Shown here piece after piece: positions 36,857 through 60,734 of a stretch of DNA of 64,000 nucleotides. The stretch comes from Paraburkholderia sp. (GTDB taxonomy: Bacteria > Pseudomonadota > Gammaproteobacteria > Burkholderiales > Burkholderiaceae): positions 111,211-175,210 of the forward strand of contig NZ_JAPWKB010000003.1 of NCBI RefSeq assembly GCF_028283785.1, in the 5' to 3' direction. The notes beneath the pieces were generated by a model that was given only the letters and a program-made list of their open reading frames with translations, did not search any database and was not told the origin of the DNA. How positions within the stretch are numbered: the stretch's first letter is position 1; each line of letters opens with the position of its first letter. Position numbers and translations under genes: made by a program.

Positions 36857-38035
36857 TCATCGCGGCTGACTCCTGACCTTCACCTCCGTCCATTCCCTGC
36901 CCCGATTGTCGCGATAGAGCGCGGTCATTTCAGCGGATCTGTGACCTGCCAAAGCCTGAGCAAAATCAGGCCCGATCTCTTCTGAGTAGAGGCGAATCGC
37001 AAGCGATCGGATCTCATGGAAAGAAGGTGGATTCTTGCCTGCGCTTCCTTCGACTCCTGCAGCAGCACGTTGGGCCGCAAATTCGACGCTGATTCGATCG
37101 GGATATACCTTGTTGCCAGGCCGTGATGGCCCGCGCGCCCTGATGAAGTGGACCATGTGCTTCGACACCACGTCGTCGCGACACCGCTTGATCATCCCCT
37201 CAATGGTCAGGCCAAGGGCGGTCAGACCAATACTCGTAGGGATTTTCAACTTTACCTTCCCCTGCATCTTGATTGGCTCAACCCAAAGAAAACCATCCTT
37301 GACCTGATCGAATTGCATCGCTGCAATGTCTGACAGGCGCTGGCCCGTCAGCAACGCAAGCTCGAATGCGTTTGCCGCCCAGCACAAACCGGGGTCTTCG
37401 CGCGTTTTATTGACGATCTTGAGAAAGTCTTCCAACGTCAGACGATCGCGCGCCACTTCCACCTTCGGCGTGGCCACGGGCACGACAGGATTTTTCCCAA
37501 GATCAATATGCCCCTTCGCCTCGGCTGCCCGAAAGACATCGAGCATCCGGCTGCGAATCTTCGCCGTCATCGTCGCGCCGCGGCTCTCCGTAATCGTTTC
37601 GATGTAGGTGTCGACGTCTGAGGTAGACACGTTGCGCAAGGCCTGGTTGGCGAATGGCGCGGACTTGATTGCCCGTATCTGCGTCTGAACGGCCTTGACC
37701 GTATTCGCGGCCTTGCCGGACTCCTCGAATTTCTCGAGATATTTGTCGCACCAACCATCAAGCGTCAGGGTACCCCCGTCTATCCGATGGATGAGGCTGA
37801 CGTCGCCAGCGCGGCGAAGCAGCTCGGCGTTAGCTGCTTTTGCCTCTGCGGAGGCGACCTTAAAGTCGCGGCCCAAGCCATACGAGTTCCCGGTCGCCGG
37901 ATTCCTGAACCAGTAATAGCCGGCCGCATTCCTGTACAGGTTCGGCGGCCAGCCTCGCCTTTCGGCAATTCTTCGTCTAGCGGCCACGCGACATCCTCTC
38001 AATGCGGTCAACTCTCGGATCGACATACTCCGCAT
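36857..38035 (-). CDS. int: lambda-type tyrosine integrase
   Basis: The N-terminal arm-binding region matches the lambda Int pattern (PPNLYRNAAGYYWFRNPATGNSYGLGRD). C-terminal catalytic residues are in HEIRSLAIRL...HRSAEMTALY. Confidence 0.95.
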   Translation of the reverse strand: MRSMSIRELTALRGCRVAARRRIAERRGWPPNLYRNAAGYYWFRNPATGNSYGLGRDFKVASAEAKAANAELLRRAGDVSLIHRIDGGTLTLDGWCDKYLEKFEESGKAANTVKAVQTQIRAIKSAPFANQALRNVSTSDVDTYIETITESRGATMTAKIRSRMLDVFRAAEAKGHIDLGKNPVVPVATPKVEVARDRLTLEDFLKIVNKTREDPGLCWAANAFELALLTGQRLSDIAAMQFDQVKDGFLWVEPIKMQGKVKLKIPTSIGLTALGLTIEGMIKRCRDDVVSKHMVHFIRARGPSRPGNKVYPDRISVEFAAQRAAAGVEGSAGKNPPSFHEIRSLAIRLYSEEIGPDFAQALAGHRSAEMTALYRDNRGREWTEVKVRSQPR

Positions 38036-40634: not shown

Positions 40635-41011
40635 GATTCCTCTGTGTGATTAGGCGGCATCAGCGCGGGCGGCGCACCGACAATCAGTTCAACAATTCCG
40701 GCTACTGCCGCGGTGGCCTGGCACGCGGCGCATGCATAGGTATGACCCTCGAGGTACAGCGTTGCGCCGCGTGCAGCGTTATCAGCGAGTCGCACCGCAT
40801 TCACCTCGGCATGCGCGGTCTGGTGACACACGGACCGGCACAACTCGTAACCGACGCCGGTTTGCATGTCGGCCCGCGGACAGCTCGTCTGCGGCGTCAT
40901 GCAGTGATTCGTCGCGACGTATCGATCGCCGTTCTGTGCAACGACCGTCGCAGTTACCGTTTGCTTCACGCATGGGCCCGAGCCTTTTGGCGAGAGTCGA
41001 ATGGTTTTCAC
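40631..41011 (-). CDS. CDA-fold zinc deaminase, dCMP-deaminase-like
   Basis: GTG 41011 (ggggag SD) overlaps the methylase stop (GTGA). HAEVNA zinc/catalytic motif and a downstream C-A-A-C (CxxC) zinc pair, with a Cys-rich insert as in dCMP deaminases. Confidence 0.7.
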   Translation of the reverse strand: MKTIRLSPKGSGPCVKQTVTATVVAQNGDRYVATNHCMTPQTSCPRADMQTGVGYELCRSVCHQTAHAEVNAVRLADNAARGATLYLEGHTYACAACQATAAVAGIVELIVGAPPALMPPNHTEES

Positions 41012-42342
41012 AGGCTCCCCATATGCGATTCCACGAGTTCGATGCGGCGGCCGATCCACGCCATCACCGGAACCGCCATGCTGTTGCCGAGCGCCTTGTA
41101 GCGCGGCCCGTCAGCCGCCGGCTTGCCGCGAACGGTGACGCGCGTGTAGTCATCGGCAAAACCTTGAAGGCGTTCACACTCGCGTGGCGTCAGACGTCGC
41201 ACCGCTGATCCGTGTGCCACACCGATCTCGCTTCCTTTTGCCATCGTCGGCGACGGAGAGCCGGGCTCTAAGCGCGAGCGGTTGTGCGGGCTGGTTATCT
41301 GCTTTAGATCGAGCGCGACCGCCAGATGACCACCGCCGTTTTGATGCGAATTCGAGTGCCCCATACTTCGCATCGTTGATGCGATCTCGCCGACACCGAA
41401 GCCGTTTTGGCCTGACGCCTTGCAGTCGAACGCAATCGCCTGGACCTCGGCGCGCGCTTCAAGCGTGTAGGCAATGTCAGATTGGACGCCAATGCCATCG
41501 GGGCCGCTGTCCGGGTTCTCGCGTGTCGCACCCGCCGGGATGGCATATGAAACCGGAACATATGTGTCGCTGTCAGCGCGGTGTGATGGCTGCGACTGTG
41601 CTCGCAACGGGTGGGCGACAAGCAGCGTTTCGGTTTCTGCGTCAATGCGCTGATTGCTGGTGGTCAGCGCGCGTGCCACACCGGGGATCAATCCGCCGTC
41701 ACACTCGAAATCGGTGCCGAGTCCGCCACCGCCTTTAGTGCGCGCGCTAAGGGTCGGGGCAACTCCTTTCCCCGTTTCGCGGCGCGGCGCAGGATGCCCG
41801 AGCAGGCTTTCGCGCTCAAAAAGTACTGCGGCGGCACGTCGCCAGTCTCCAAGATGTCCGACAACGAACACACGGCGGCGTCGCTGGGCCACTCCGAAGA
41901 ACTGAGCGTCAAGAACGCGGTAGGCGAACCCATACCCGAGCTCTGCCAGCCCTCCGAGGAGGGTTCCAAAATCCCGTCCGCCGTTTGATGACAGGACGCC
42001 GGGGACGTTTTCCCAAACCAGCCAGCGGGGAGCGAAGCGCTCAGCAATGGCAAGATAGGTGAGCATGAGGTTGCCACGCGGATCAGCCAGTCCCTTTCGG
42101 AGTCCAGCGACGCTGAAGCTTTGGCAGGGAGTTCCGCCGACGAGAAGATCGAGAGTTGCATCGGGCCAATCCTTGAATTTGGTCATGTCGCCCAGGTTCG
42201 GGACGCTCGCATGGTGATGCGCTAGGACGGCGCACGGGAACGGCTCGATCTCGCTGACGAACTGAGCGCGCCAGCCGAGCGGGTTCCACGCGCAGCTCGC
42301 CGCTTCGATGCCGCTGCAAACCGATCCGAATTTCAATTCCAT
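41008..42342 (-). CDS. DNA (cytosine-5)-methyltransferase
   Basis: Motif I FGSVCSGIE, motif IV GGTPCQSFS, motif VI ENVPG, motif VIII QRRRRVF. C-terminal ECERLQGF and GNSMAVPV motifs. Confidence 0.95.
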   Translation of the reverse strand: MELKFGSVCSGIEAASCAWNPLGWRAQFVSEIEPFPCAVLAHHHASVPNLGDMTKFKDWPDATLDLLVGGTPCQSFSVAGLRKGLADPRGNLMLTYLAIAERFAPRWLVWENVPGVLSSNGGRDFGTLLGGLAELGYGFAYRVLDAQFFGVAQRRRRVFVVGHLGDWRRAAAVLFERESLLGHPAPRRETGKGVAPTLSARTKGGGGLGTDFECDGGLIPGVARALTTSNQRIDAETETLLVAHPLRAQSQPSHRADSDTYVPVSYAIPAGATRENPDSGPDGIGVQSDIAYTLEARAEVQAIAFDCKASGQNGFGVGEIASTMRSMGHSNSHQNGGGHLAVALDLKQITSPHNRSRLEPGSPSPTMAKGSEIGVAHGSAVRRLTPRECERLQGFADDYTRVTVRGKPAADGPRYKALGNSMAVPVMAWIGRRIELVESHMGSL

Positions 42343-43662: not shown

Positions 43663-43751
43663 TTTTTTCTCCGTGCATGTAAAACACCCAGACCCACACC
43701 CACTGCGACCGCTCCCAATATGGAGAGAGCGAGCCATTCGATACCGGTCAT
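43659..43751 (-). CDS. 30-aa single-pass membrane peptide
   Basis: MTGIEWLALSILGAVAVGVGLGVLHARRKK. The ATG overlaps the HNH stop (ATGA) and the stop overlaps the next GTG start (GTGA). Confidence 0.4.
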   Translation of the reverse strand: MTGIEWLALSILGAVAVGVGLGVLHARRKK

Positions 43752-44326
43752 TCAGGTGACTCGGTTGAACTCGCGTCCGTCGAAACCGGCGACGGCCGGT
43801 ACGACTTTCCGTAAATCACGCTCTCGATCGTGCTAACGCTCACATCGAAGCGCTTCGCCAGAGCTTTCACTGGCTCTCCGAACCTCCGGGCGCGCCTGAT
43901 GGCAGCAGCGTGTCCGGGCTTGAGCTTCGCGCTGTGGTGGTTGCTTCCACCGAGATAGGTTCCGTGGCGTTGCCGGTCCTGCGCGTTGTCCAAAGCCGTC
44001 CCGTGCGCCAGATTCGTGTACCGGTTATCGGATGGCACTCCATTCAAGTGCCGAACTTGCGTTCCGTTTGGCGCTGGTCCGTGGAACGCATCGGCTACCA
44101 ACTGATGAACTCCGATGGGTCGCGATTTACCTGACGGCTGTACAACGCTGACGGTCAGATAACCCTTGGCGGTGCGCGTCCGTGCCAGCTCATAGCAATG
44201 AGTCCGATCAATACAGGTCACAGATCCACCCACGGCACCAAGGGTTCGCACCCCGCGACGGCGGTGCGAAATGATCCGGCCGTCTTCGGTTGCCGAGTAA
44301 CCGCGGAAGGAGGGGCACGGTCTCAT
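43748..44326 (-). CDS. NUMOD4/HNH homing-type endonuclease
   Basis: N-terminal GYSATEDGRIIS (NUMOD4-like), HNH_3 core (VRHLNGVPSDNRYTNLAHGTALDN) and a C-terminal HTH-like tail. Confidence 0.85.
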   Translation of the reverse strand: MRPCPSFRGYSATEDGRIISHRRRGVRTLGAVGGSVTCIDRTHCYELARTRTAKGYLTVSVVQPSGKSRPIGVHQLVADAFHGPAPNGTQVRHLNGVPSDNRYTNLAHGTALDNAQDRQRHGTYLGGSNHHSAKLKPGHAAAIRRARRFGEPVKALAKRFDVSVSTIESVIYGKSYRPSPVSTDASSTESPE

Positions 44327-45084
44327 CGCATCACCCGATCAAACGAAACGCACCATACCCATGGGTTTTTCGCCCAGGCGCCGTCGCCGTTGATGCCGTC
44401 CCAGAGGCAATGGAACAGGCCACGCGCATCAAGCGTTTCATCGGCGTCTGGCACGCTGCGCAGGAAGTTGACGCCCTCTGACTCGGCATCTGCTTCGCTG
44501 ATGTCGTGCAAACGCTCAACGCGCACACCTGTGACTTCGAGCGTGATGCGCGATGCGGCGCGCGGCATGTGGATGCTGGGAGTCCAGCGAACTGGCTGGC
44601 TGTCGCCTACGTGATGCCATTGCACATTAGGCATCTCGCCATCCGCCAAATAGACGTAGCGGCTCTTCCAATCGGGGCGCGCGGGCGATCCGGCGGTGCC
44701 GAGCGGCCCCGTCGTGCGTCCTGCGGGGATGTCGACCTCAAACACTTGGGCGTGCGTCTCGCGCACCCACAGACGATCGCCAATCTTCCCGAACGGGCTC
44801 GGCGTCCAGTACCAGTCGCCCGCCATTGGATGCTTTGCCGGCAAGATAGGCCATCTCCGCAGCGACTTGAGCGGTTGGCCGGGCCGAAGTTCCTCGGACC
44901 AGAAAAACGATCCGACTGGTCTCGGCGCGTTGTCTTGTGATAGCGAATGACCTTCCGATGCGAACGTCGCCCATGCCGGCGGCAATTCGTTTCGCACCTT
45001 CACGATACGTCGCGTCTGCGTCTTGCTGCCGTCGAGCAGAGCGCGCACCATCGGGCCGCTGAAGAGGATCGGACGTTCTTTCAT
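44323..45084 (-). CDS. conserved phage protein of unknown function (possibly ASCH/PUA-like)
   Basis: 253 aa. The ILFSGPMVRALLDGSKTQTRR N-terminus and IHMPRAASRITLEVTGVRVERL core recur in prophages. The fold guess is weak. Confidence 0.6.
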   Translation of the reverse strand: MKERPILFSGPMVRALLDGSKTQTRRIVKVRNELPPAWATFASEGHSLSQDNAPRPVGSFFWSEELRPGQPLKSLRRWPILPAKHPMAGDWYWTPSPFGKIGDRLWVRETHAQVFEVDIPAGRTTGPLGTAGSPARPDWKSRYVYLADGEMPNVQWHHVGDSQPVRWTPSIHMPRAASRITLEVTGVRVERLHDISEADAESEGVNFLRSVPDADETLDARGLFHCLWDGINGDGAWAKNPWVWCVSFDRVMR

Positions 45085-45174: not shown

Positions 45175-45693
45175 CTAAAGCGCGGGATTCGTGTCGAGCA
45201 AGTGCGACCACAACTTGCCGATCACGATGTAGTAAATGAGAGTCCCGGTAACGCCAAACTCGCGCGCCAAAGCGTCGGCGCCGTTGCGCCGGTCATAGCG
45301 TTTGAAACGTCGGCGAATTTCGAAAACCTGCGCTTCAGTCAGCTTCGCCTGATGATGTTTCTCGCCGCGGAGCTGAGTACCGTGTTCGATCTTGTCGAAC
45401 TCATTTTCGGTCGCTGTGCCGTACACAAGATTCGTATGTCGGTTATCGGCATTGATGCCGTTTCGATGACGGACTACCATGCCGTCTGGACGAGGGCCAA
45501 TGAATGCTGCTGCCACTAAGCGCTGCAAGGCACGTTTGGTGGGTTTCTGACGCGACCAAAGAGTCACGCTCAAATAGCCCTTGCGATCAGCGCGAGGCTT
45601 TTTGATGGACGCACCCCTTCGCACCCTTCCAAAACTACTAACCTCGTATTGAGGAAACTCTGCAATCACTCGCCATTCTTCAGCGCAGAGCAT
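45175..45693 (-). CDS. NUMOD4/HNH homing-type endonuclease (second copy)
   Basis: ATG 45693. EEWRVIAEFPQYEVSSFGRVRR (NUMOD4) and VRHRNGINADNRHTNLVYGTATEN (HNH_3). Confidence 0.85.
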   Translation of the reverse strand: MLCAEEWRVIAEFPQYEVSSFGRVRRGASIKKPRADRKGYLSVTLWSRQKPTKRALQRLVAAAFIGPRPDGMVVRHRNGINADNRHTNLVYGTATENEFDKIEHGTQLRGEKHHQAKLTEAQVFEIRRRFKRYDRRNGADALAREFGVTGTLIYYIVIGKLWSHLLDTNPAL

Positions 45694-45701
45694 GTCGGCC
45701 C

Positions 45702-46070
45702 TTAAATATGAGGCTGATGGGTTCTTCGGACGGCGCGAGCGCGAAACTCGGTGTCCTTGCGGTAGTAGTCCTGGTAGCCGTTGATGAAGACCTGAAACCA
45801 GGCCCAACCGCTCTCGCGGTGGTGCGTCTCGTTGCTCCAGTAATAGTCGCCCTTGAACTGATCTCGGAAACCGTCCCACAACATCACCTGCTCGATACGG
45901 TTCGGCAGATCACCGCCGATGCTCTTGGCCCATTCGAGTTGTTTCTCGAATGTGGCGTCGTCGTTGTCGCCCGGCAGCAGCACGACATGGTGGAAGTCGC
46001 CGTTCTTGTCGCCGATCGCACCGATGTAGATCTCACCTTCGGCGAGCGGGGGAAGCTGAAGCTGTTGCAT
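45702..46070 (-). CDS. DUF1566-like (Lcl C-terminal domain) protein
   Basis: GDLPNRIEQVMLW ... YYWSNE ... AWFQVFINGYQ ... RARAVRR matches the remembered DUF1566 pattern. Confidence 0.65.
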   Translation of the reverse strand: MQQLQLPPLAEGEIYIGAIGDKNGDFHHVVLLPGDNDDATFEKQLEWAKSIGGDLPNRIEQVMLWDGFRDQFKGDYYWSNETHHRESGWAWFQVFINGYQDYYRKDTEFRARAVRRTHQPHI

Positions 46071-46346: not shown

Positions 46347-46991
46347 TTAGGCGGCGACTACCTGAATCGGTACGTGCTTGCTGGGCTTACCGCATCCGAC
46401 GCTGGGTCTTGCCTGATCCGGATGACTTCGCATCCAGTCCTGGACCTTCCCGCACCAATCGAACAACTCTTCGTTGCTCATGACGTTTTTCATGATGTTG
46501 ACCTTCTTATGGACCCACTGAACATTGTTCTCGGTGTATCCAAAGCGACTGTCTTTTCGGTCAAGCGAGGCTGTCTGTGTCCCGCGCTGATCTCTGATAT
46601 TCGTGCTGAACTTGATCGGCTCTCCTGTTAGTGCACATAGGCCGCCTTGATCTAGATAAAGCTGCCAAGCAAATTCGCGTGTAACTTCGAAAGGGATTCC
46701 GCGGCGCACGGCTTGCCGAGTGATTGGAGTCCAGAAAGACAGCGTGATTTCTGCCACGGCATCCCGATTGTGTGCATTGCCCTTGTTGAAGCATCCGCAG
46801 GATTTGGTGTCGCCGTTTTGGAGGTATTTCCCGAGAACCGCGACGGTTTCTCCGCAGTCGCAATGGCATTCCCATATCGGGCGTCTTGATTTCCGCCGCC
46901 GCGTGTCAACTAGAACAAGCAGCTTGCCGAATTTCCGACCGCGCAAGTCGATGAGATTGTGGCCACCTCGATTCGTATGGCGATCAGTCAT
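46347..46991 (-). CDS. HNH-type endonuclease with one FGKL...CxCxCG...SCGC zinc-ribbon module
   Basis: ATG 46991 overlaps the radical-SAM stop (ATGACTGA). Contains GRKFGKLLVL...WECHCDCGETVAV...TKSCGC and ASLDRKDSRFGYTENNVQWVHKKVNIMK. Confidence 0.75.
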   Translation of the reverse strand: MTDRHTNRGGHNLIDLRGRKFGKLLVLVDTRRRKSRRPIWECHCDCGETVAVLGKYLQNGDTKSCGCFNKGNAHNRDAVAEITLSFWTPITRQAVRRGIPFEVTREFAWQLYLDQGGLCALTGEPIKFSTNIRDQRGTQTASLDRKDSRFGYTENNVQWVHKKVNIMKNVMSNEELFDWCGKVQDWMRSHPDQARPSVGCGKPSKHVPIQVVAA

Positions 46992-47940
46992 GCGCGCACT
47001 CCACGCGGATAGGGGTATGCACCTTCGGTTTCCCAAACCCGATGCTTTTGATCGTCTTGTCTGGGTTGCTTCGCATCCACTCTTGGGTCATCCACAATTG
47101 TCCGCATCCGCCGCCGATGGTGTCTTGCCCAGCTGGGTCAAACATCCTGGTGTCGTAGCCGCGCTCAACCAGTTTCGACGCGAAATCAGATGCCAGTCCG
47201 CGTTGATGGTCGTTCGATGTCGGAAGCCACTCCTGGCGCTCGCAGATCACACTGACCGTAGCGCACCAGATGATCGGATCAAAGAGAGCCAGAATCCTGT
47301 CTGCGTCGGCAGGCGTCGAATTGGCATCGTGAGCGCAGTAGTTGAAGAATGGCTTCCGGCCGGTATTGACGAACCATGCCGTGCCAGTCGATGCGATTTC
47401 CTCCAGCGTCAACTTCGCCTTGAACGGAATCAACTCGTTACGCGCTTCGTCCGTCGATTCGTGGACGGAGAATTGCAGACCAACGGTCGGCACATCCACG
47501 CTCAAATTGATGACTTGGCCGTAATCGACGCGCGGTGCCGATGTGGAGATCAGCAACGCGGCGTTCGGATAACGGCGGTGCAATTCGCGGATCGCCGGAT
47601 CGAGCGCCTTCATGTTCAGCATCGGTTCTCCCATGCTCATGAACATGATTTGCAGGCGCCCCATCGTTGCGGGGTCGACTCCGGTATCCTCGATGCATCG
47701 CACGGGCTGCGACACGATCTCTTCCGTGGTCAGCGATCGCACGAAATAATCGCCGGAACCACAGAACCGACATCCGATCGGACATCCTGATTGCGTCGAA
47801 CAGCAGATAACGGTTCGGGTTTGGTAATCAGGGTATCTGTACAGAACCGCCTCAACCACTGCGTCGTCGTGCGAGAATACGTACTTGGAAACGCTGGACG
47901 CGTCATCGCTCACGACCTTCACGTCGCTCCATTCGCTCAT
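46984..47940 (-). CDS. RlmN/Cfr-class radical SAM methyl synthase
   Basis: ATG 47940. CCSTQSGCPIGCRFCGSG (CxxxCxxC plus the upstream mechanistic Cys), MGEPMLN, LISTS, SVHES...R..L.P, and the C-terminal GGGCGQL second mechanistic Cys. Collinear with E. coli RlmN motifs as remembered. Confidence 0.85.
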   Translation of the reverse strand: MSEWSDVKVVSDDASSVSKYVFSHDDAVVEAVLYRYPDYQTRTVICCSTQSGCPIGCRFCGSGDYFVRSLTTEEIVSQPVRCIEDTGVDPATMGRLQIMFMSMGEPMLNMKALDPAIRELHRRYPNAALLISTSAPRVDYGQVINLSVDVPTVGLQFSVHESTDEARNELIPFKAKLTLEEIASTGTAWFVNTGRKPFFNYCAHDANSTPADADRILALFDPIIWCATVSVICERQEWLPTSNDHQRGLASDFASKLVERGYDTRMFDPAGQDTIGGGCGQLWMTQEWMRSNPDKTIKSIGFGKPKVHTPIRVECAHD

Positions 47941-48086: not shown

Positions 48087-49802
48087 TCAGGCCGCGTGTT
48101 CGAGCGCTACATGCGTGGAGATTGTCGCTGTCTCGATGTGTCGGATCAGCGCAGCGCAGATCTTCGGGAAGTCTTCTTCGTGATACAGCTTCGCCGACTT
48201 GTCCGTTGCTGCTGGTTTGAACCCCAGCGTCGCGAGGCCTTCGGCACTGAGCGCGACCGGCGCCAATCGTTCGTTGATCTGCCCGAGTCTTAGGGTTGGC
48301 GCGCTGGTCGGGGCCGAGCGCGTCTTAGCCATGGTCTCTGCGAACCCACTCCGCGTACCCACACCCTGATTCGCAACTCCAGCAGCCGTAGAAATCGTCG
48401 AGCCAGAGGTGACCTCCGCAGAGACACGCGCGTTTCCCGCCTCTTCCGCGATCTTCTGCCGCGCTTTGTCTTCTTCCTCGCGCCGGATGCGTTCGCGCTC
48501 GTCGTCGAGGCGCTTTTGTTCTGCGGCCTTGTGGGTCGCGATCCGCGTCGAGACGATCAGCTTCAAATCGTCCAGATGCTTTGCGATGAGCGCCGCTGTG
48601 TCATTGAACAGGAAGGCGTAGCCAGCGCCGTCTGTTGCGATGCACGCGAGGTTCTCGCGGACGCGCCTCGCGGAAGCATCGGCGTCGATCTTCGCGTTAG
48701 CCAGCACCGTGTTTACGGCATCCTGAATGCTAGCGACGGTGCGTTTTCCCTTGGCGGCAGCGCCGAAGTCGGGCTGAGACATGCTGACGAGATGACCGCC
48801 GGTCTCTTCACGCAGGACGGCGAGATGACGCTCATACGCGCGCTTTGCCTTGAGCAGGATCTCGTCCTTGATTTCGACCTTCCGCTTCGTGACGAGCTTG
48901 TCGAGAGCGAGGCGCGTGGAGCGGGCTTCGGCGGCGATATCGTCGATCGTCTTGAACAGCACATCGATGCTCTCGGTCTGGCTCAGTGCGTGCTGCTTTG
49001 CAGCCTCGAGGCGTGTCTCGACTTCACCGCACCACTTGACGGCCTTCTCAGCGTCAGCGAAATGCTGATCGGTCGTGAGTTCACGATTGATGCCACCAAA
49101 CACGGCCATCGCATGAGCGCGGAACTCGGTCAGGTTGCTGGCCGTCACCATGCCGGTCACTTCAATGCGTAGCGCGGGCAGGGCCTCAGGCGTGCGGCCA
49201 ACCGGCTTTGCTTCGATGACCTCCGGAGAGTAGGCTTCGGCGTCCCTCTCAAACTGGCTCCAGCCGGCCAAAATGCGGTCGCGCCAGACAGGATCAGGCA
49301 AGACTTCCATGCTTACCATGTTCTCGCGCGTGCCGTCCGACACGGTGAAAACCACTTTCTCTGCGCCTGTCACCAACATGATCTGTTGCGGTTGCGGTAT
49401 GTACTCCTCAGGGAGAACCCCCGCAGCGACCGACTTCGCGAGTGCGTCGTTCCATTGTTTGTGCTCCCAGGCGATCCGTTCGTCCATCGTCAGGCCGTCG
49501 CACGAAGCGGACAGGACGCCGAGCGAGCAGGTGACCGGATAGAGTTCTTCGCCGAGCATCTCTTCAGCGAGGGGTCGCGCCATCGCTTCGACTTCGTGAC
49601 CTTTATCGAGGATGCGCGTCTGCACGAACTCGCTGAATTCTTTGGCCGTTCCGACGACCTTCATGTGCAGAAGTTCGGTTCGCTTAATCTTCGTCGAGAC
49701 GCCGAGCATCGCGCCGGCTTCGCTCGCGCCGAAGTGGGTTAGGCGGAACTGCGCCCACTCTTCGCTACCCTGCGCGAGATCGTGAATGATGCGTTCAGTC
49801 AT
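48087..49802 (-). CDS. YqaJ/lambda-Exo-like recombination exonuclease with ~370-aa C-terminal extension
   Basis: N-terminal GSEEWAQFRLTHFGASEAGAMLG ... DGL ... EHK PD-(D/E)XK pattern. Residues ~200-571 are coiled-coil/low-complexity. Confidence 0.8.
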   Translation of the reverse strand: MTERIIHDLAQGSEEWAQFRLTHFGASEAGAMLGVSTKIKRTELLHMKVVGTAKEFSEFVQTRILDKGHEVEAMARPLAEEMLGEELYPVTCSLGVLSASCDGLTMDERIAWEHKQWNDALAKSVAAGVLPEEYIPQPQQIMLVTGAEKVVFTVSDGTRENMVSMEVLPDPVWRDRILAGWSQFERDAEAYSPEVIEAKPVGRTPEALPALRIEVTGMVTASNLTEFRAHAMAVFGGINRELTTDQHFADAEKAVKWCGEVETRLEAAKQHALSQTESIDVLFKTIDDIAAEARSTRLALDKLVTKRKVEIKDEILLKAKRAYERHLAVLREETGGHLVSMSQPDFGAAAKGKRTVASIQDAVNTVLANAKIDADASARRVRENLACIATDGAGYAFLFNDTAALIAKHLDDLKLIVSTRIATHKAAEQKRLDDERERIRREEEDKARQKIAEEAGNARVSAEVTSGSTISTAAGVANQGVGTRSGFAETMAKTRSAPTSAPTLRLGQINERLAPVALSAEGLATLGFKPAATDKSAKLYHEEDFPKICAALIRHIETATISTHVALEHAA

Positions 49803-50658
49803 TTTCGTGACTCCATGAATCGATAGTGGTTTTCTGGTCTTCGGTCAGCGCGGCACCGCGCGCTTCGATGAACGCGACCATTCCAGCGACCGTCTTGCGA
49901 CCTGACTTGACAATCTCGCGCCACGAAGCCTTGTTCTTGTCGAACGCCTCCTGGCTGTATTGCTGAGGCTCGGCTGACGACTTGGCACCCTTCTGGTTTG
50001 CGGGCGACTCACTGCGGTGACTTTCTTTCCCTGCGTCGCCGTCAGCGCCGCCAGCGCCGTCGTCGTCCTCTTCCTTCGTGGACATACCAGTGACGGACAG
50101 AAGCGTGTAGCGCTGGAGGTAGGTGATCGTGCTGGCGGCTTGCTGGATCGCATTCTTCTTGCCGCTCGAGTCGGGTGCGCCGCTCATGGTCACTTTCTTG
50201 GAGTAGCCAAGTTCATGCGTGACTACACAGTCGATCGTGATCGATCCCGCCGTCTGGTGAATATCCCAATCAAAGCTGAGACCGTGCCGCGCCATCGCAG
50301 GGGCTATTGCGTCAGTGATGTCTGCCAGCGTGGCGTGCTTGTAACCGACGAAATCGCCAGCGCCCGTCTTGTAGCCGACCTCTTTGCGCTTGAAGATTTC
50401 GATAGGCTCACGCTTGAAAGTCGCCATAGCCGACACGAATGCCTTGCGGGCCTCGTTCGCCTCCCAGCGCTCCTGAAGCTCCATCAGCTTTTCGAGCCGG
50501 TCGAGATCGGCATTTGACTCAACTGCAATGCGTAGTAGATCGGAGGGCGTCGTCGTCGCGATTGCCGTGCGTTGCTCTGGCTGCACAACTGGTCTGTTGG
50601 AAGAGGTAAATTCGGCGGATTCGACGTCGATCACGTCAGCCATCGTTGCTGTATTCAC
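49795..50658 (-). CDS. ERF-family single-strand annealing protein
   Basis: Core FVGYKHATLADITDAIAPAMARHGLSFDW ... ITYLQRYTLL. Lies directly upstream of the exonuclease gene. Confidence 0.8.
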   Translation of the reverse strand: MNTATMADVIDVESAEFTSSNRPVVQPEQRTAIATTTPSDLLRIAVESNADLDRLEKLMELQERWEANEARKAFVSAMATFKREPIEIFKRKEVGYKTGAGDFVGYKHATLADITDAIAPAMARHGLSFDWDIHQTAGSITIDCVVTHELGYSKKVTMSGAPDSSGKKNAIQQAASTITYLQRYTLLSVTGMSTKEEDDDGAGGADGDAGKESHRSESPANQKGAKSSAEPQQYSQEAFDKNKASWREIVKSGRKTVAGMVAFIEARGAALTEDQKTTIDSWSHEND

Positions 50659-50921
50659 GCTTGCTCCCCTTCTCCGGCCCTATCGATCCGCGTGTACGGA
50701 TATTTTTCAGGAAACGGCTTGATGAATTTGTAGAAGTGACTTCCGATCGACTCTGCGTCGCGGAACGACGCGAAGTCCTCGGGGGAAACGTTCGCATAGT
50801 GATAGAGCGAACCCGGACCGCGCCTGCTTGCGAATTGAATCGCGAGAGTGTTCGTCGCCGGGTCGTAACCGATAGCAGCTATCTGACTCGACTCGACAGA
50901 ATCCATAGCGATGATGGTCAT
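50655..50921 (-). CDS. KTSC domain protein
   Basis: SSQIAAIGYDPATNTLAIQFASRRGPGSLYHYANVSPEDFASFRDAESIGSHFYKFIK fits the KTSC pattern. Confidence 0.75.
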   Translation of the reverse strand: MTIIAMDSVESSQIAAIGYDPATNTLAIQFASRRGPGSLYHYANVSPEDFASFRDAESIGSHFYKFIKPFPEKYPYTRIDRAGEGEQA

Positions 50922-55855: not shown

Positions 55856-56650
55856 TTAGTTTCCGCCAGCCAGGCCGGACCCCGACCGGTACACGACCTC
55901 ACCTGCGATCTGCAGCCCCTCGAGCTGCTCGGCAGAGATGATCTTGTCCGGATACTCAGAGTTGTAGGAATGAAGGCGCAAAGCGCCCTCGGGTTCCTTG
56001 AAGATCTGTTTCACAAGCGGCTCGTCTTCGAATGTCACCGCATAGATTAGGCCGTCTTTGACCCGGGTTTTCGCCGTGCAGATCATCATCATGTCTCGAT
56101 TGAACAAGTAGGGCTCCATGCTCCGGCCATGAACCTGAGCCAACTTGCAATCCTGCGGGCGCACACCGAGCGCCTTGAAAAACCCGATATCAAACGGCAG
56201 CGCTTTTTTCTGTCGCACTTCCCACTGAATCACGCCGTTCCCCGCTGAATAACGATAGTCATACCGGTCGATCCATACCCGATCGCTGTCGGGCTCCAGG
56301 TCGTCCGGCTTCTCCCAGGTAACCAAGTTACCTTTGTCTGAAGGGAGTAATTCAGCGATTACACGCTTTGTTTGGTCGTTTATCTCCGCACTCTCAAGCG
56401 GAGATTCGTGTTTAAGACCGCTCGGGACCATCTCTCCGACGCCCGTTAGCAACCATGTTGCGTCACATCCAATAAGGGCCTGCGCCTTCAGCGCGCCCTC
56501 TCTTGACACGCCCCGGCTCGACCAGTTGGTGATCGACTGAGGCACCACATCAAGCAGACGAGCGACATCCGAAGGGCCTTCAACACCCTTCATTTCTTTG
56601 GCAGCCAGGAACAACCGTGCGGCTGTTCCGTGAATAACGCGTTCTTTCAT
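55856..56650 (-). CDS. cI: CI-like repressor (XRE HTH + S24 LexA-type autopeptidase)
   Basis: ATG 56650. HTH DVARLLDVVPQSITNWSSRG. S24 motifs GRSMEP and VKQI (Ser/Lys dyad region). Confidence 0.9.
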   Translation of the reverse strand: MKERVIHGTAARLFLAAKEMKGVEGPSDVARLLDVVPQSITNWSSRGVSREGALKAQALIGCDATWLLTGVGEMVPSGLKHESPLESAEINDQTKRVIAELLPSDKGNLVTWEKPDDLEPDSDRVWIDRYDYRYSAGNGVIQWEVRQKKALPFDIGFFKALGVRPQDCKLAQVHGRSMEPYLFNRDMMMICTAKTRVKDGLIYAVTFEDEPLVKQIFKEPEGALRLHSYNSEYPDKIISAEQLEGLQIAGEVVYRSGSGLAGGN

Positions 56651-56668
56651 GGCCGCGATCTTTGCACA

Positions 56669-56747
56669 AGTAAACGGAATGTTGTTACACGCGGCGTTTG
56701 TAAAATCTGTTGACGGTGGTTTAAACATAGTGTGTAATGTACTCACC
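56669..56747 (+). promoter_or_regulatory. putative pR/OR (and pRM region) between cI and cro
   Basis: TTGACG (56710-56715), a 17-nt spacer, then TGTAAT (56733-56738), with GTTTAAAC (56719-56726) in the spacer. Degenerate half-sites at CGTTTGTAAAA (~56695) and GTAAACGG (~56670). Confidence 0.55.
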
Positions 56748-57020
56748 ATGATTAAACACACCGACCTTCACCCCGACAGCCAGCTCATCGAAGAGCTGGG
56801 CGGTGCCACCAAGTTGGCCGAACGGCTTGGCTACCAGGCGCGCGGCGGCATTCAGCGGATCCAGAACTGGAAGACGCGCGGAATACCAGCCGAAGTCAAG
56901 CTGGAGCACCCCGAGCTGTTCCTGACCGATCTTATTGATCGCGCCAGGGCGACAGACGATACCCAGCCGCCAGTCGGGACAGTAAAGGGATCGGACAAGC
57001 TCTCGAAGATGGTCGCGTAG
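56748..57020 (+). CDS. cro: Cro/YdaS-like HTH regulator
   Basis: ATG 56748. LIEELGGATKLAERLGYQARGGIQRIQNWKTRGIPAEV. Divergent from cI. No SD; the ATG lies ~10 nt after the -10 element. Confidence 0.6.
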   Translation: MIKHTDLHPDSQLIEELGGATKLAERLGYQARGGIQRIQNWKTRGIPAEVKLEHPELFLTDLIDRARATDDTQPPVGTVKGSDKLSKMVA

Positions 57021-58927: not shown

Positions 58928-59328
58928 TTGGCGGCAGAGATCGGAAAGGTAACGGCTGAGACCGGGGAGTCCGACAACGCTTCACTGCACTGCCCCGTCT
59001 CCCGAATCGTTAGCGCATATCACGAGTTGATGCCCCTGAATCCGAGGGTCAAGGTTTTGAATGACAAGCGCAGGAAGTCTATTTCTGCGCGCTGGCGTGA
59101 GGCTGCAAGGTTGGATTTCAAGCCATTCGGTTATGCGACGGTTCAGCAGGGCCTGGATGCGTGGAGAGAGTTTTTCACAGTCTGCGCAGGCTCAGATTTC
59201 CTGACTGGCAAAGGAAAGCCCAAGCCAGGGCTGGGGCCGTTCTCTTGGCTGACATCGACTTCCTGATGTCGCCGGAAGGCTTTGCGAAGTGCTTTGAGAA
59301 CAAGTACCACCGTGAGGTTAAAGAATGA
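58928..59328 (+). pseudogene. replication accessory protein with a reading-frame break near 59235-59245
   Basis: Frame 2 gives CPVSRIVSAYHELMPLNPRVKVLNDKRRKSISARWREA...FFTVCAGSDFLTGKGKPKPG. The family-typical ending ADIDFLMSPEGFAKCFENKYHREVKE is in frame 1 and overlaps the dnaB start by ATGA. The start codon (TTG 58928) is uncertain. Confidence 0.45.
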
Positions 59329-60734
59329 ATGCCCCCGACCGATTTATCGAAGGCCGCAGCTTGAACGTACCGCCGCACAGCGCTGAAGCCGAGCAATCCG
59401 TTCTCGGCGCGCTGATGTTCGACAACGACGCGATGGACCGGATCGCCGATCTCCGCGCGACGCACTTTTACCGCTACGACCACCGCATCATTTTCGATTG
59501 CATCGCGAAGCTGATCGTCTCCGGTCGCAACGCCGACGTCATCACGGTTTATGAATCGCTTGGTACGGCTGGCAAGGCTGACGAGATCGGCGGTCTTGCG
59601 TACCTGAACACGCTCGTGCAGAACACGCCGGGAAGCAGTGGCATCCGTCGCTGGGCGGAGATTGTGATCAACCGCGCGAAGCTGCGCGGCCTGATTTCGG
59701 CTGCCGACGAAATCTCCGCAATGGCGTTTCAGCCGGAGGGTCGCGAAGTGTCCGAGATCATCGCCCACGCGCAAGCGAAGCTCGAGCCGCTGGCCGATGC
59801 GGGTGCTCGCGAACCGGCGTTCATCGCCACGTTCCTGACGCCGATCATTGAACGCATCGACCAGGAGTTTCACGGCAGCACGGAAGTCAAGACATCGTAT
59901 TCGACCGGACTTCGGGACCTCGACGAGAAGCTGGGCGGCGGCATGAAAGGCGGTCAACTGATCATCGTTGCTGGGCGCCCGGCAATGGGAAAAAGCGCGA
60001 TCGCACTCGGCGTGTCTGAGTCTGTAGCCGATGCTGGCGCGACGGCTATGTTTTTCACGCAGGAAATGACTGGGTCAGAGTTGACGTCACGTTCGCTCTC
60101 CCGGAAGTCGGGGCTTGCACTGGACAAGATCCTGAACGGCGCGAAGATCGGCCAACAAACCGACGCCGACTGGTCAATGCTGACGCTGGGCGTTCAGCGG
60201 CTGTCTGAATTGCCGCTTCTGATCGACGAGACGGCCGGCATTTCATTGCCAGAGATTCAGGCTCGTGCTCGCGCGGCGAAGCGCAAGCATGGCTTGGGGC
60301 TGATCGTCGTCGACTATCTTGGGCTGATGGCGGCATCGCAGGGTGCGAACCGGACTGAGCAGGTCGGCGCGAACAGTCGCGGTCTGAAGACGTTAGCGAA
60401 GCAGCTCGACATTCCGATCCTGTTGCTGGCCCAGCTCAACCGGAAGCTCGAGGAGAGAAACAACAAGCGCCCGATGCTTTCCGACCTCCGTGACTCTGGA
60501 GAAATTGAACAGGATGCGGACGTGGTTCTGTTCCTGTATCGCGACGAAGTCTACAACCCGGATTCGCCCGAGCGCGGTACCGCCGAGATCAATGTGGCTA
60601 AGCAGCGTAACGGCCCGACCGGGATCGTCCGAGCAGCCTACTTTGGCGAGCGAACTACGTTTTCGGACATGGAGCCGGGTTATATGCCGGAACTGCGCAA
60701 AGCGCCAGAGAAAGCACGGCGCGGTTTCGAGTAA
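59325..60734 (+). CDS. dnaB: replicative DNA helicase
   Basis: 469 aa. N-terminal PPHSAEAEQSVLGALM, Walker A GRPAMGKS, DYLGLM, and SLKTLAKQLDIPILLLAQLNR motifs. Confidence 0.95.
   Translation: MNAPDRFIEGRSLNVPPHSAEAEQSVLGALMFDNDAMDRIADLRATHFYRYDHRIIFDCIAKLIVSGRNADVITVYESLGTAGKADEIGGLAYLNTLVQNTPGSSGIRRWAEIVINRAKLRGLISAADEISAMAFQPEGREVSEIIAHAQAKLEPLADAGAREPAFIATFLTPIIERIDQEFHGSTEVKTSYSTGLRDLDEKLGGGMKGGQLIIVAGRPAMGKSAIALGVSESVADAGATAMFFTQEMTGSELTSRSLSRKSGLALDKILNGAKIGQQTDADWSMLTLGVQRLSELPLLIDETAGISLPEIQARARAAKRKHGLGLIVVDYLGLMAASQGANRTEQVGANSRGLKTLAKQLDIPILLLAQLNRKLEERNNKRPMLSDLRDSGEIEQDADVVLFLYRDEVYNPDSPERGTAEINVAKQRNGPTGIVRAAYFGERTTFSDMEPGYMPELRKAPEKARRGFE

What the first reader, a model, noticed from the sequence alone, without database searches (positions are those of the whole stretch)
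46984..47940. Prophage-encoded RlmN/Cfr-class radical SAM methyl synthase
The 318-aa product aligns motif-for-motif with what I recall of RlmN/Cfr. It has the radical SAM cluster GCPIGCRFC preceded by the mechanistic Cys (ICCSTQ), plus MGEPMLN, LISTS and SVHES..R..L.P. The second mechanistic Cys is in GGGCGQL near the C-terminus. The N-terminal accessory domain of RlmN is much shorter here. RlmN methylates C2 of A2503 in 23S rRNA and of tRNA A37. Cfr methylates C8 of A2503 and confers multidrug (PhLOPSA) resistance. A phage early-operon copy could remodel host ribosomes or tRNA, modify phage nucleic acid, or act as a mobile resistance-like determinant. I am not aware of a described role for this class in temperate phages.
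Basis: partly seen in the sequence, partly recalled or inferred. Interest (0 to 1): 0.7.

Follow-up and report, generated by a model that had tools for sequence, protein, structure and literature searches.

The report
NAD-linked phage radical SAM methylase
This prophage gene encodes an intact RlmN/Cfr-type radical SAM methylating enzyme, but it belongs to a separate phage-spread branch that lacks the RNA-docking domain and elsewhere sits inside NAD-salvage operons, so its target is probably not the ribosome site the name suggests.

Summary
Window 46984-47940 (minus strand) encodes a 318-aa protein with every catalytic motif of class A radical SAM methyl synthases: C46 = RlmN C118, C53/57/60 = the cluster, C279 = RlmN C355. 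RlmN and Cfr are its closest sequence and fold relatives. It lies in the early-left operon of a lambdoid prophage and is under purifying selection (dN/dS 0.07-0.13).

The protein fails every RlmN and Cfr equivalog cutoff (93.7 vs 290 bits; 71 vs 530). It lacks the ~75-aa N-terminal domain, has its own conserved C-terminal tail, is acidic, and forms a separate clade (100/100 bootstraps; ~25% identity to both RlmN and Cfr).

The new result is a genomic link to NAD+ salvage.
- In 32 of 115 non-redundant family loci, and in 5 of 14 replication groups, the gene sits among NrtR, NAMPT, Prs, PncA, PncB, NadD and NadE genes. None of 23 canonical rlmN loci does.
- The link also holds in a chromosomal Saccharibacteria NAD locus, where NrtR-type operators lie upstream of the gene.
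- One family member is fused to a Nudix domain.

The window copy stands alone and carries an HNH endonuclease insertion that duplicated its 3' end. The substrate is unknown. I favour an NAD/ADP-ribose-related adenine nucleotide over RNA, and think Cfr-like resistance is unlikely.

The parts
46984..47940 (-). CDS of the 318-aa class A radical SAM methyl synthase-like protein (the target), including its stop codon
   Evidence: ORF and translation. RlmN/Cfr are the nearest profiles, all below cutoff. PDB matches. AF2 model and Foldseek. dN/dS 0.07-0.13 against three relatives.
47803..47805 (-). Codon of Cys46, the counterpart of RlmN Cys118 (the resolving cysteine)
   Evidence: Aligns with RlmN C118. 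Invariant in the family.
47761..47784 (-). CX3CX2C motif (C53, C57, C60) that binds the [4Fe-4S] cluster and SAM
   Evidence: Aligns with RlmN C125/C129/C132. Pfam Radical_SAM match over residues 49-167.
47095..47115 (-). GGGCGQL motif holding Cys279, the counterpart of RlmN Cys355 (the methyl-carrying cysteine)
   Evidence: Alignment. Invariant G276, G278, C279, G280, Q281, L282.
46987..47094 (-). Family-specific C-terminal tail (W-x-x-Q-x-W-M...P...G-x-G-x-P-x-V-H-x-P), absent from RlmN and Cfr
   Evidence: Conserved positions W283, Q286, W288, P293, G301, G303, H308 and P310. Low model confidence in this stretch.
46984..47056 (-). Replacement 3' end of the rSAM gene, brought in with the HNH cassette. 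It shows no blastn-level DNA similarity to the P. tropica allele, but its protein tail resembles the Cupriavidus P0015 tail.
   Evidence: DNA similarity to the P. tropica gene stops at 47056. Tail comparison.
46347..46991 (-). HNH-type endonuclease ORF (214 aa from the ATG at 46991). It overlaps the rSAM stop codon by 8 nt and reads in frame into the displaced ancestral rSAM tail.
   Evidence: PHROG 3322 endonuclease 1e-20, PHROG 374 HNH 6e-19, PHROG 1035 endonuclease VII 2e-15. Absent at the same position in the P. tropica prophage.
46347..46445 (-). Displaced ancestral 3' end of the rSAM gene (...VQDWMRSHPDQARPSVGCGKPSKHVPIQVVAA*), now the C-terminus of the HNH ORF
   Evidence: 84% DNA identity to codons ~283-303 of the P. 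tropica gene over 46445-46384. Protein comparison.
48087..50658 (-). Context: the RecE-like/YqaJ exonuclease (48087-49802) and Erf single-strand annealing protein (49795-50658) immediately upstream in the same early-left operon
   Evidence: Pfam YqaJ and ERF. PHROG 7655 RecE-like 3e-180. Same order RecT-YqaJ-rSAM in P. tropica and SSAP-YqaJ-rSAM-PncA in L006.

Best explanation
The gene encodes a functional class A radical SAM methyl synthase. It should work chemically like RlmN and Cfr. One SAM methylates Cys279. A second SAM is cleaved at the C53/C57/C60 [4Fe-4S] cluster to give a 5'-deoxyadenosyl radical. That radical abstracts a hydrogen from the methyl-cysteine, the resulting methylene radical adds to an sp2 (amidine-type) carbon of the substrate, and Cys46 resolves the covalent adduct.

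The protein is not an RlmN or Cfr ortholog. It belongs to a third clade that is spread by phages across many phyla. This clade has lost the N-terminal domain that is the RNA-docking element in RlmN and Cfr (established knowledge, not tested here), has gained its own C-terminal tail, and is repeatedly built into NAD+ salvage/reconstitution operons and predicted NrtR (ADP-ribose-responsive) regulons.

My committed reading is that it is a single-gene accessory or counter-defence module expressed early from the prophage pL-type operon. I think it C-methylates an adenine-containing target belonging to the NAD+/ADP-ribose economy of the infected cell, more likely a nucleotide-level substrate (an NAD+/ADPR-derived molecule) than 23S rRNA A2503.

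Shown here: the motifs, the fold, clade separation, purifying selection, the genomic coupling and the operator motif.
Inferred: the chemistry, early expression, the counter-defence role and the nature of the substrate.

Approximate likelihoods: class A methyl synthase chemistry 0.9; distinct from RlmN/Cfr orthologs 0.85; functional tie to NAD/ADPR metabolism 0.65; small-molecule rather than RNA substrate 0.4.
For: Catalytic apparatus and fold
- C46, C53/57/60, C279 and E30 (= RlmN E105) align with RlmN and are invariant.
- AF2 model pLDDT 87. Foldseek gives RlmN 2.6e-17 and Cfr 1e-11, and other radical SAM folds at 1e-5 or worse.
- dN/dS is 0.07-0.13.

Separate clade
- Below all RlmN and Cfr cutoffs.
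- Bimodal gap: family members score 235 bits or more, canonical RlmN about 100 bits.
- Monophyletic in 100/100 bootstraps. Mean identity is 25.9% to RlmN and 25.1% to Cfr, against 35.2% between RlmN and Cfr.
- No N-terminal domain.
- Median pI 5.7 against 8.6 for the RlmN control set.

NAD coupling
- 32/115 non-redundant loci have NAD genes within 6 kb, 22 within 400 bp, and 11 in operonic arrangement with 4-bp overlaps.
- Pfam/NCBIfam identify the neighbours as NrtR, NAMPT, nicotinamidase-type, NAPRTase, Prs and NadD-type proteins; NadE-like was assigned from its sequence only.
- 0/23 canonical rlmN loci carry such genes.
- Replicated in 5/14 independent groups.
- NAD-linked members are scattered over the whole family tree. 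They include L006, 78% identical to the target and in the same SSAP-YqaJ-rSAM layout, with a nicotinamidase-type gene directly downstream.
- The Saccharibacteria locus L101 is chromosomal, flanked by MetRS, TatD and ATP synthase genes, with the gene inside pncB-pncA / nrtR-nadE.
- The 21-bp palindrome TTAGTGT-N7-ACACTAA (the NrtR core GT-N7-AC of PMC2330246) occurs 20 times against 0.27 expected, including upstream of the rSAM gene.
- The core member P0142 is an rSAM-Nudix fusion with all motifs intact.
- Published background: NARP1 ~4.3% and NARP2 ~1.1% of phage genomes (PMC13464706).
- Precedent: a gene inserted in a NARP1 operon proved to be an ADPR-signal-degrading evasion enzyme.
Against: - The window itself has no NAD-salvage gene, and about 70% of family loci show none within 6 kb. 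The enzyme therefore does not need phage-encoded NAD enzymes, and the link could be indirect (shared regulation, or accessory-gene islands).
- To my knowledge, every characterised class A enzyme acts on RNA, and their turnover is slow. That argues against modifying an abundant metabolite pool.
- tRNA genes lie within 8 kb in 21/116 loci, and the ANB28 homolog sits inside a tRNA cluster. RtcB recurs in 6 loci.
- The Nudix fusion was seen only once, and its Nudix domain is generic, MutT/NudI/RppH-like.
- E. coli RlmN itself has a pI of 6.6, so charge is weak evidence.
- In L101 and L103 the operator boxes lie in an intergenic region shared with divergent pncA, so they might regulate pncA only.
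- No biochemical data exist.
Confidence: 0.5

Rival explanations
1. It is an RNA adenine C-methylase with a new specificity. For example, it could methylate A37 or a neighbouring anticodon-loop adenine of host or phage tRNAs, to tune translation or to protect tRNAs against anticodon nucleases, much as Hen1 protects repaired RNA. On this view the NAD genes are only co-resident accessory genes.
For: - To my knowledge, all characterised relatives act on RNA, and RlmN itself has dual rRNA/tRNA specificity.
- tRNA genes lie in 21/116 loci, and the ANB28 homolog is inside the phage tRNA cluster.
- RtcB RNA ligase recurs in 6 loci, and an RNA ligase lies near the Arash homolog.
- A single-gene module is typical of nucleic-acid modifiers.
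Against: - The family lacks the N-terminal accessory domain kept by both RNA enzymes.
- It is mostly acidic.
- RNA modification does not explain operonic placement inside NAD operons of several architectures and phyla, the chromosomal Saccharibacteria locus with NrtR boxes, or the Nudix fusion.
- tRNA regions of large phages are general accessory-gene hotspots (my own knowledge, not tested here), so that proximity is not specific.
Confidence: 0.3
2. One reading: it is a phage-borne RlmN or Cfr equivalent that methylates 23S rRNA A2503 (C2 or C8). It would remodel host ribosomes or confer PhLOPSA-type antibiotic resistance on lysogens.
For: - The best profile and structure matches are RlmN and Cfr.
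- Both mechanistic cysteines are conserved.
- Automatic annotations call relatives '23S rRNA (adenine2503-C2)-methyltransferase'.
- A sister position to Cfr is not excluded (48/100 bootstraps).
Against: - Scores are 3-8 times below all curated cutoffs (93.7 vs 290; 71.1 vs 530; 64.6 vs 550).
- It forms a separate clade on a long stem.
- It lacks the N-terminal domain.
- It lies in the early lytic-type operon next to recombination genes, not in a lysogeny-expressed moron position.
- Nearly all bacteria already carry RlmN (my own knowledge, not tested here), so an m2A2503 activity would be redundant.
- The NAD/NrtR/Nudix coupling is unexplained.
Confidence: 0.1
3. The NAD association is not functional. 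The gene is a generic phage accessory gene that travels in the same variable islands as NAD-salvage modules, and its real target (RNA, DNA or protein) has nothing to do with NAD. This overlaps with the first rival.
For: - About 70% of loci lack NAD genes nearby, and the window has none.
- Many loci come from large phages, where auxiliary genes cluster.
Against: - Overlapping start and stop codons with pncA, nrtR, NAMPT and nadE.
- Several unrelated NAD architectures across distant phyla.
- A non-phage chromosomal locus.
- Shared operator motif, 20 sites against 0.27 expected.
- The Nudix fusion.
- 0/23 in the control set.
Confidence: 0.15
4. It C-methylates adenine in phage DNA, as a new anti-restriction base modification.
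For: - It lies in the same early operon as a DNA methyltransferase (41008-42342) and recombination genes.
- Phages often carry orphan DNA methylases in this position (my own knowledge, not tested here).
Against: - No DNA-recognition domain.
- No recurrent association with DNA-modification genes in the neighbour clustering.
- A slow, stoichiometrically costly mechanism is ill-suited to genome-wide modification.
- The chromosomal NAD-operon context is unexplained.
Confidence: 0.04

Closest known systems
RlmN (dual-specificity 23S rRNA m2A2503 / tRNA m2A37 methyl synthase; TIGR00048; PDB 3RFA, 5HR7, 6FZ6)
   Same: - Radical SAM core fold (Foldseek E 2.6e-17 to 1e-13, TM about 0.7).
- CX3CX2C cluster.
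- Both mechanistic cysteines and Glu105 equivalent.
- MGEP, STSG and SxH..R..L/I-P motifs, and the CGQL motif.
   Different: - Only about 26% identity; 93.7 bits against a cutoff of 290.
- No N-terminal HhH2-type domain (about 75 aa).
- Different strand motifs (FFNYCAHD, ATVSVICE in place of IEYVMLD, INLIPWNP).
- Own conserved C-terminal tail.
- Acidic.
- Phage-borne, and linked to NAD operons rather than the housekeeping ndk-rlmN-rodZ-ispG-hisS type context seen in E. coli.
Cfr (23S rRNA m8A2503 methyl synthase, PhLOPSA resistance; NF000424, TIGR04432; PDB 9P0P)
   Same: - Same class A chemistry motifs and fold (Foldseek 1e-11; phmmer 3e-14).
- Also mobile.
- A sister-group relation is not excluded (48/100 bootstraps).
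   Different: - About 25% identity; 64.6-71.1 bits against cutoffs of 530-550.
- No N-terminal domain.
- Found in phages of many phyla rather than on resistance plasmids or transposons.
- No resistance-gene neighbours.

Phage NAD+ reconstitution and salvage modules (NARP1 Adps-Namat, NARP2 Nampt-Nmnat, NARP3 NadR-PnuC) and their inserted accessory genes such as RyDEP
   Same: - Family members sit between or next to Prs/Adps-type and NAMPT-type genes, or next to PncA-PncB-NadD-NadE sets, in phage genomes.
- RyDEP is a precedent for an unrelated enzyme inserted into a NARP1 operon that acts on ADPR-derived molecules.
   Different: - None of the NARP, RyDEP or viral NAD-ADPr survey papers mentions a radical SAM partner.
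- The window's copy has no NAD genes around it.
- No NAD-related activity has been shown for this enzyme.
NrtR regulons (ADP-ribose-responsive Nudix-wHTH repressors of NAD metabolism; Rodionov et al. 2008, PMC2330246)
   Same: - NrtR-type genes are the commonest neighbour (26 loci).
- 21-bp GT-N7-AC palindromes precede the NAD genes and the rSAM gene in CPR/DPANN loci.
   Different: - The published regulons list no radical SAM gene. The unknown members nrtX and nrtY are not described there.
- Operator function was not tested here.
Integrating or homing elements that supply a substitute 3' end for the gene they interrupt (for example e14 and phage 21 in icd; free-standing HNH homing endonucleases in phage genes). 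Recalled from my own knowledge.
   Same: The HNH cassette sits at the end of the rSAM gene, just after the most conserved codons (GGGCGQL...). The gene's 3' end is present twice, so the enzyme stays intact.
   Different: Here the displaced ancestral tail is fused in frame to the endonuclease ORF. Mobility was not shown.

Membership tests
Class A radical SAM methyl synthases (RlmN/Cfr superfamily) | CX3CX2C motif binding the [4Fe-4S]/SAM site | tested here: met
   C53, C57 and C60 align with RlmN C125/C129/C132 and are invariant. Pfam Radical_SAM scores 27.4 bits, just under the gathering score of 29.5.
Class A radical SAM methyl synthases (RlmN/Cfr superfamily) | Two mechanistic cysteines: the methyl carrier in the C-terminal CGQL motif, and the resolving Cys upstream of the cluster | tested here: met
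   C279 = RlmN C355 and C46 = RlmN C118. Both are invariant in the family.
Class A radical SAM methyl synthases (RlmN/Cfr superfamily) | Core fold closest to RlmN/Cfr among solved structures | tested here: met
   Foldseek on the AF2 model (pLDDT 87): the top 11 hits are RlmN and Cfr (2.6e-17 to 1e-11). The next fold is at 1e-5 or worse.
Class A radical SAM methyl synthases (RlmN/Cfr superfamily) | Methyl transfer to an sp2 carbon through a methyl-cysteine / methylene-radical intermediate | not testable with these tools
   Needs anaerobic reconstitution and product analysis.
RlmN (TIGR00048, NF008396) | Score at or above the curated equivalog cutoff | tested here: not met
   93.7 bits against 290; 64.9 against 633.
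RlmN (TIGR00048, NF008396) | N-terminal HhH2-type accessory domain (about 60-75 aa) | tested here: not met
   The match starts at profile position 73. RlmN residues 1 to ~75 are unaligned.
RlmN (TIGR00048, NF008396) | Groups phylogenetically with RlmN | tested here: not met
   The family is a separate clade in 100/100 bootstraps. Mean identity to RlmN is 25.9%. There is a bimodal score gap.
RlmN (TIGR00048, NF008396) | Forms m2A at 23S A2503 and tRNA A37 | not testable with these tools
   Biochemical assay needed.
Cfr (NF000424, TIGR04432, NF011024) | Score at or above the curated cutoff | tested here: not met
   71.1 against 530; 64.6 against 550; 66.1 against 468.
Cfr (NF000424, TIGR04432, NF011024) | Falls inside the Cfr clade | tested here: not met
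   Cfr and Cfr(D) are monophyletic without the family (100/100). A sister relation is unresolved at 48/100.
Cfr (NF000424, TIGR04432, NF011024) | m8A2503 formation and PhLOPSA resistance | not testable with these tools
   MIC tests and primer extension or MS needed.
Accessory genes of NAD+ salvage / NARP operons and NrtR regulons | Operonic adjacency to NAD-salvage genes | tested here: inconclusive
   Met for the family: 32/115 loci within 6 kb, 11 operonic, 5/14 replication groups, and 0/23 controls. Not met in the window itself, which has no NAD genes in 64 kb.
Accessory genes of NAD+ salvage / NARP operons and NrtR regulons | NrtR-type operator upstream of the gene | tested here: inconclusive
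   Present in the CPR/DPANN loci: 20 sites against 0.27 expected, with sites at -82 to -211 from the rSAM start. Not examined for other lineages, whose NrtR motifs differ. Binding was not tested.

The most novel reading that the evidence does not exclude
This clade is the first class A radical SAM methyl synthase that acts on a free adenine nucleotide of the NAD+/ADP-ribose network rather than on RNA. The substrate could be NAD+, ADPR, a cyclic-ADPR immune signal, or an ATP-derived molecule. Phages would use it, alone or together with NARP/Preiss-Handler modules under NrtR control, to blunt NAD+-depleting or ADPR-signalling defence. Some reduced-genome bacteria would have fixed it in their own NAD operons.
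Probability: 0.3. Interest if true: 0.9.

Novelty: new variant of a known kind. Interest (0 to 1): 0.7.

Why it matters
To my knowledge, RlmN and Cfr are the only characterised class A radical SAM methyl synthases, and both act on RNA. This work points to a third lineage. It is spread by phages across many phyla, lacks the RNA-docking domain, and is built into NAD+ salvage/reconstitution operons and ADP-ribose-responsive regulons. That would widen the chemistry and biology of the class. It would also add an unrecognised player to the NAD+-centred conflict between phages and bacterial immunity, where NARP1-3 and RyDEP were found only recently.

There is also a practical point. Relatives of this gene are routinely auto-annotated as '23S rRNA (adenine2503-C2)-methyltransferase'. 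That label is probably wrong and could be misread as a Cfr-like resistance determinant on mobile elements.

The hypothesis can be tested directly with a C46A substrate-trapping variant and with metabolite and nucleoside mass spectrometry.

Tried and rejected
- DNA similarity of the 8-kb region to deposited phages: only a 157-bp match to Burkholderia phage Magia, which was uninformative.
- The look-up of encoding contigs for the exact window protein: nothing on record.
- PADLOC defence models: no hit for the target, the HNH ORF or the 253-aa neighbour.
- NAD-salvage homologs in the window: none. tRNA genes in the window: none.
- Literature searches for a phage RlmN-like enzyme, a radical SAM partner of NARP or NrtR systems, or a class A survey: nothing relevant. 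The viral NAD-ADPr survey and the NARP1, NARP3 and RyDEP papers do not mention it.
- The rSAM-Nudix fusion was not found again in IMG/VR, and its Nudix domain could not be assigned a specific substrate.
- The C-terminal extension of the L133 fusion, the P0109 and P0119 extensions, and neighbour cluster c10 (which I suspected to be a macro domain) gave no Pfam or NCBIfam hit. I make no claim about them.
- Promoter and terminator scans around the gene were at chance level.
The first tree script timed out. Both were redone.
- I dropped the idea that the family is unusually conserved. Within-family mean identity (52.7%) is about the same as among the RlmN controls (52.6%).
- I rejected the 'decaying remnant' reading because dN/dS is 0.07-0.13.
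Full report
OBSERVATION

The ORF is real. It lies on the minus strand at 46984-47940, with an ATG at 47940, and encodes 318 aa. In an alignment with E. coli RlmN taken from NC_000913, the residues correspond as claimed:
- C46 (the first Cys of ICCSTQ) aligns with RlmN C118.
- C53/C57/C60 align with the cluster cysteines C125/C129/C132.
- C279 in GGGCGQL aligns with C355.
- E30 aligns with E105.

These residues are invariant in 35-40 homologs. The similarity is not chance: TIGR00048 E = 1e-26 and PDB RlmN 6fz6 E = 7e-20. An AlphaFold2 model (pLDDT 87, pTM 0.88) finds RlmN (2.6e-17 to 1e-13) and Cfr (1e-11) as its top eleven PDB matches, while the next radical SAM folds score 1e-5 or worse. The N-terminal truncation is also real, because the match begins at profile position 73 of 355 and RlmN residues 1 to ~75 have no partner.

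PROPHAGE CONTEXT

The window holds the following genes:
- integrase, 36857-38035 (-)
- DNA methyltransferase, 41008-42342 (-)
- three HNH-type genes
- the target
- RecE-like/YqaJ exonuclease, 48087-49802 (-)
- Erf, 49795-50658 (-)
- KTSC protein, 50655-50921 (-)
- CI-like repressor, 55856-56761 (-)
- DnaB, 59325-60734 (+)

This is a lambdoid early-left operon. The closest relative (84% identity, Paraburkholderia tropica) has the same slot: repressor ... RecT-YqaJ-rSAM ... integrase. dN/dS against three relatives is 0.07-0.13, so the gene is maintained by selection.

NOT AN RlmN OR CFR ORTHOLOG

- Every curated model is missed by a wide margin: RlmN 93.7 vs 290 bits; Cfr 71.1 vs 530 and 64.6 vs 550.
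- Among 164 loci recovered from IMG/VR and GTDB genomes, scores are bimodal. Family members score 235 bits or more (44% identity or more). Canonical RlmN-type proteins score about 100 bits (about 31% identity).
- I built a neighbour-joining tree with S. aureus Cfr, Cfr(D), a Firmicute RlmN, E. coli RlmN and 22 other RlmN-type proteins. The family is monophyletic in 100/100 bootstraps on a long stem. Mean identity is 25.9% to RlmN and 25.1% to Cfr, whereas RlmN and Cfr share 35.2%. A sister relation to Cfr is unresolved at 48/100.
- The family has its own conserved C-terminal tail.
- It is mostly acidic. Median pI is 5.7 and the target's is 5.1, against 8.6 for the RlmN controls. E. coli RlmN itself is 6.6, so this is weak evidence.
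- An exhaustive search finds 78 representatives at E <= 1e-30. It also finds many other short class A relatives that lack the N-terminal domain.

DISTRIBUTION

The family occurs in at least 226 IMG/VR contigs and in lytic phages: Stenotrophomonas ANB28 and BUCTxx99, Xanthomonas JGB6, ~130-kb Vibrio phages, Aeromonas Ahp1 and Salmonella Arash. It is also found in genomes or MAGs of Proteobacteria, Actinobacteria, Saccharibacteria, Bacteroidota, Firmicutes and some archaeal bins. Sources label it 'rRNA methyltransferase', 'radical SAM protein', 'hypothetical' or, wrongly, 'prohibitin'.

THE UNEXPECTED RESULT: A LINK TO NAD+ SALVAGE

I clustered all ORFs within 6 kb of the gene in 115 non-redundant loci. 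The recurrent genuine neighbours are:
- NrtR (NUDIX + NrtR_WHD), 26 loci
- NAMPT, 15 loci
- nicotinamidase-type isochorismatase, 11 loci
- NadE-like, 11 loci (identified from its sequence only)
- two NAPRTase types, 6 and 5 loci
- PRPP-synthetase/Adps-type, 5 loci
- NadD-type adenylyltransferase

Pfam and NCBIfam support all of these assignments except NadE-like.

The numbers are as follows. Thirty-two of 115 loci have at least one such gene within 6 kb. Twenty-two have one within 400 bp. Eleven are operonic, several with 4-bp overlaps, for example pncA-rSAM-nrtR in L104. The architectures differ: NrtR-rSAM-NAMPT, NrtR-NAMPT-rSAM, Prs-rSAM-NAMPT, and PncB-PncA<>rSAM-NrtR-NadE.

Several checks support a real association:
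- None of 23 canonical rlmN loci (306 kb) has an NAD homolog.
- In an independent set of 29 loci (14 groups), 5 groups carry rSAM ... PncA-PncB-NadE-NadD-NrtR or Prs-rSAM-NAMPT.
- Published background frequencies are about 4.3% (NARP1) and 1.1% (NARP2) of phage genomes.
- NAD-linked members are scattered over the whole family tree.
- L006 is 78% identical to the target. It has the same SSAP-YqaJ-rSAM layout, with a nicotinamidase-type gene starting at the rSAM stop codon.

The link is not only a phage-island effect. In Saccharibacteria locus L101 the flanks are ordinary chromosomal genes (ABC transporter, FKBP, MetRS, TatD, cysteine desulfurase, ATP synthase subunits). The gene sits between pncB-pncA and nrtR-nadE.

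In these CPR/DPANN loci a 21-bp palindrome, TTAGTGT-N7-ACACTAA, has the GT-N7-AC core published for NrtR operators. It occurs 20 times against 0.27 expected. It lies upstream of pncA, nadE, nadD, nrtR and pncB, and also upstream of the rSAM gene, at -82/-133, -83/-134 and -170/-211.

A core family member, P0142, is fused to a Nudix domain with all catalytic motifs intact. A more distant relative without the N-terminal domain, P0207, is fused to an HD/HD_assoc module of the dNTPase type.

None of the papers on viral NAD-ADPr systems, NARP1, NARP3, RyDEP or NrtR regulons mentions a radical SAM partner. RyDEP is a precedent for an unrelated enzyme inserted into a NARP1 operon that acts on ADPR-derived molecules.

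COUNTER-EVIDENCE

- The window has no NAD genes, and about 70% of family loci have none nearby.
- tRNA genes are within 8 kb in 21/116 loci, and the ANB28 copy lies in a tRNA cluster.
- RtcB recurs in 6 loci.
- To my knowledge, all characterised class A enzymes act on RNA and are slow. That argues against bulk modification of a metabolite pool.
- The Nudix fusion is a single case, and its Nudix domain is generic.

INTERPRETATION

The chemistry is almost certainly that of RlmN and Cfr: a methyl-cysteine ping-pong followed by radical addition to an amidine-type carbon. This is inferred from conserved residues and fold. The biological role is probably not that of RlmN or Cfr.

I commit to the following reading. 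This is a stand-alone early phage accessory enzyme, and its target belongs to the NAD+/ADP-ribose economy. As a single hypothesis, a nucleotide-level substrate (about 0.4) is slightly favoured over a new RNA target (about 0.3). A2503 methylation or Cfr-like resistance is unlikely (about 0.1), and DNA modification is very unlikely.

SIDE FINDING

The P. tropica 3' end matches the window twice: at 47200-47056 inside the target, and at 46445-46384 at the end of the following ORF. Between the two matches lie a substitute 3' end for the rSAM gene and an HNH-type endonuclease ORF (46347-46991; PHROG endonuclease/HNH families, E = 1e-20). The P. tropica prophage has no such ORF at this position.

This looks like a homing-type insertion just downstream of the GGGCGQL codons. 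It duplicated the tail, so the enzyme stays whole. The conserved tail positions W283, Q286, W288, P293, G301, G303, H308 and P310 are all kept.

Noticed in passing
window 46347-47056 (-): An HNH-type endonuclease cassette is inserted at the 3' end of the rSAM gene. It brings a substitute tail for the enzyme and reads in frame into the displaced ancestral tail. The gene's codons ~283-294 are present twice as an imperfect ~35-bp direct repeat.
   Followed up: yes
window 43748-44326 (-) and 45175-45879 (-): There are two further NUMOD4/HNH_3 endonuclease genes. That makes three HNH-type genes within about 3.3 kb of this early operon, an unusual density of putative homing endonucleases for a temperate phage.
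   Followed up: partly
window 44323-45084 (-): A 253-aa protein matches PHROG 874 (unknown function, E = 6e-73). It has no Pfam or PADLOC hit and recurs near the rSAM gene in 4 loci (cluster 33).
   Followed up: partly
window 41008-42342 (-): A 444-aa DNA methyltransferase (PHROG 116, E = 3e-91), with additional matches to a primase-annotated PHROG, lies in the same early-left operon.
   Followed up: no
window 13254-14828 (+) and 20142-21644 (+): Two paralogous ~500-aa ORFs both match PHROG 15577 (unknown function; E = 1e-99 and 2e-117). They lie left of the integrase, outside the prophage arm studied here. This part of the window may be another mobile element.
   Followed up: no
L094, L098, L100, L101, L103 (Saccharibacteria MAGs) and L135 (Woesearchaeota MAG): A 21-bp palindrome, TTAGTGT-N7-ACACTAA, occurs 20 times against 0.27 expected, in front of pncA, pncB, nadD, nadE, nrtR and the rSAM gene. 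It is a candidate NrtR operator for CPR/DPANN lineages, which the 2008 regulon paper does not list among its lineage groups in the passages I read.
   Followed up: partly
P0207 (759 aa) and L133:1720-3357: Other class A relatives without the N-terminal domain carry C-terminal fusions. P0207 has an HD + HD_assoc module (dNTP triphosphohydrolase type). L133 has a ~250-aa Rossmann-like extension with no Pfam hit.
   Followed up: partly
L180:6414-6998, L189:6416-7000, L180:9245-9937: In gut-phage loci, ORFs I judged to be metallophosphoesterases from their sequence motifs flank the rSAM gene, and one ends 1-3 nt before the rSAM start. NCBIfam gave no hit for L180:6414-6998 and only a marginal phosphoesterase-family hit for L180:9245-9937. 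They may relate to the phage phosphatases reported to counter RES-type NAD+ degradation (bioRxiv 10.64898/2026.01.28.702374).
   Followed up: no
L001 (Stenotrophomonas phage ANB28) 3669-8987: The homolog lies inside the phage tRNA gene cluster (Ile, Pro, Leu, Thr upstream; Ser downstream). In the related records OR529408 and OQ436456 the homolog is mis-annotated as 'prohibitin family protein'.
   Followed up: partly
phage records MT835834, MK416010, OR602862 and others: Many human-gut and other phage records encode more distant RlmN-like proteins (26-32% identity). Class A radical SAM methylases in phages appear more diverse than this one clade.
   Followed up: no
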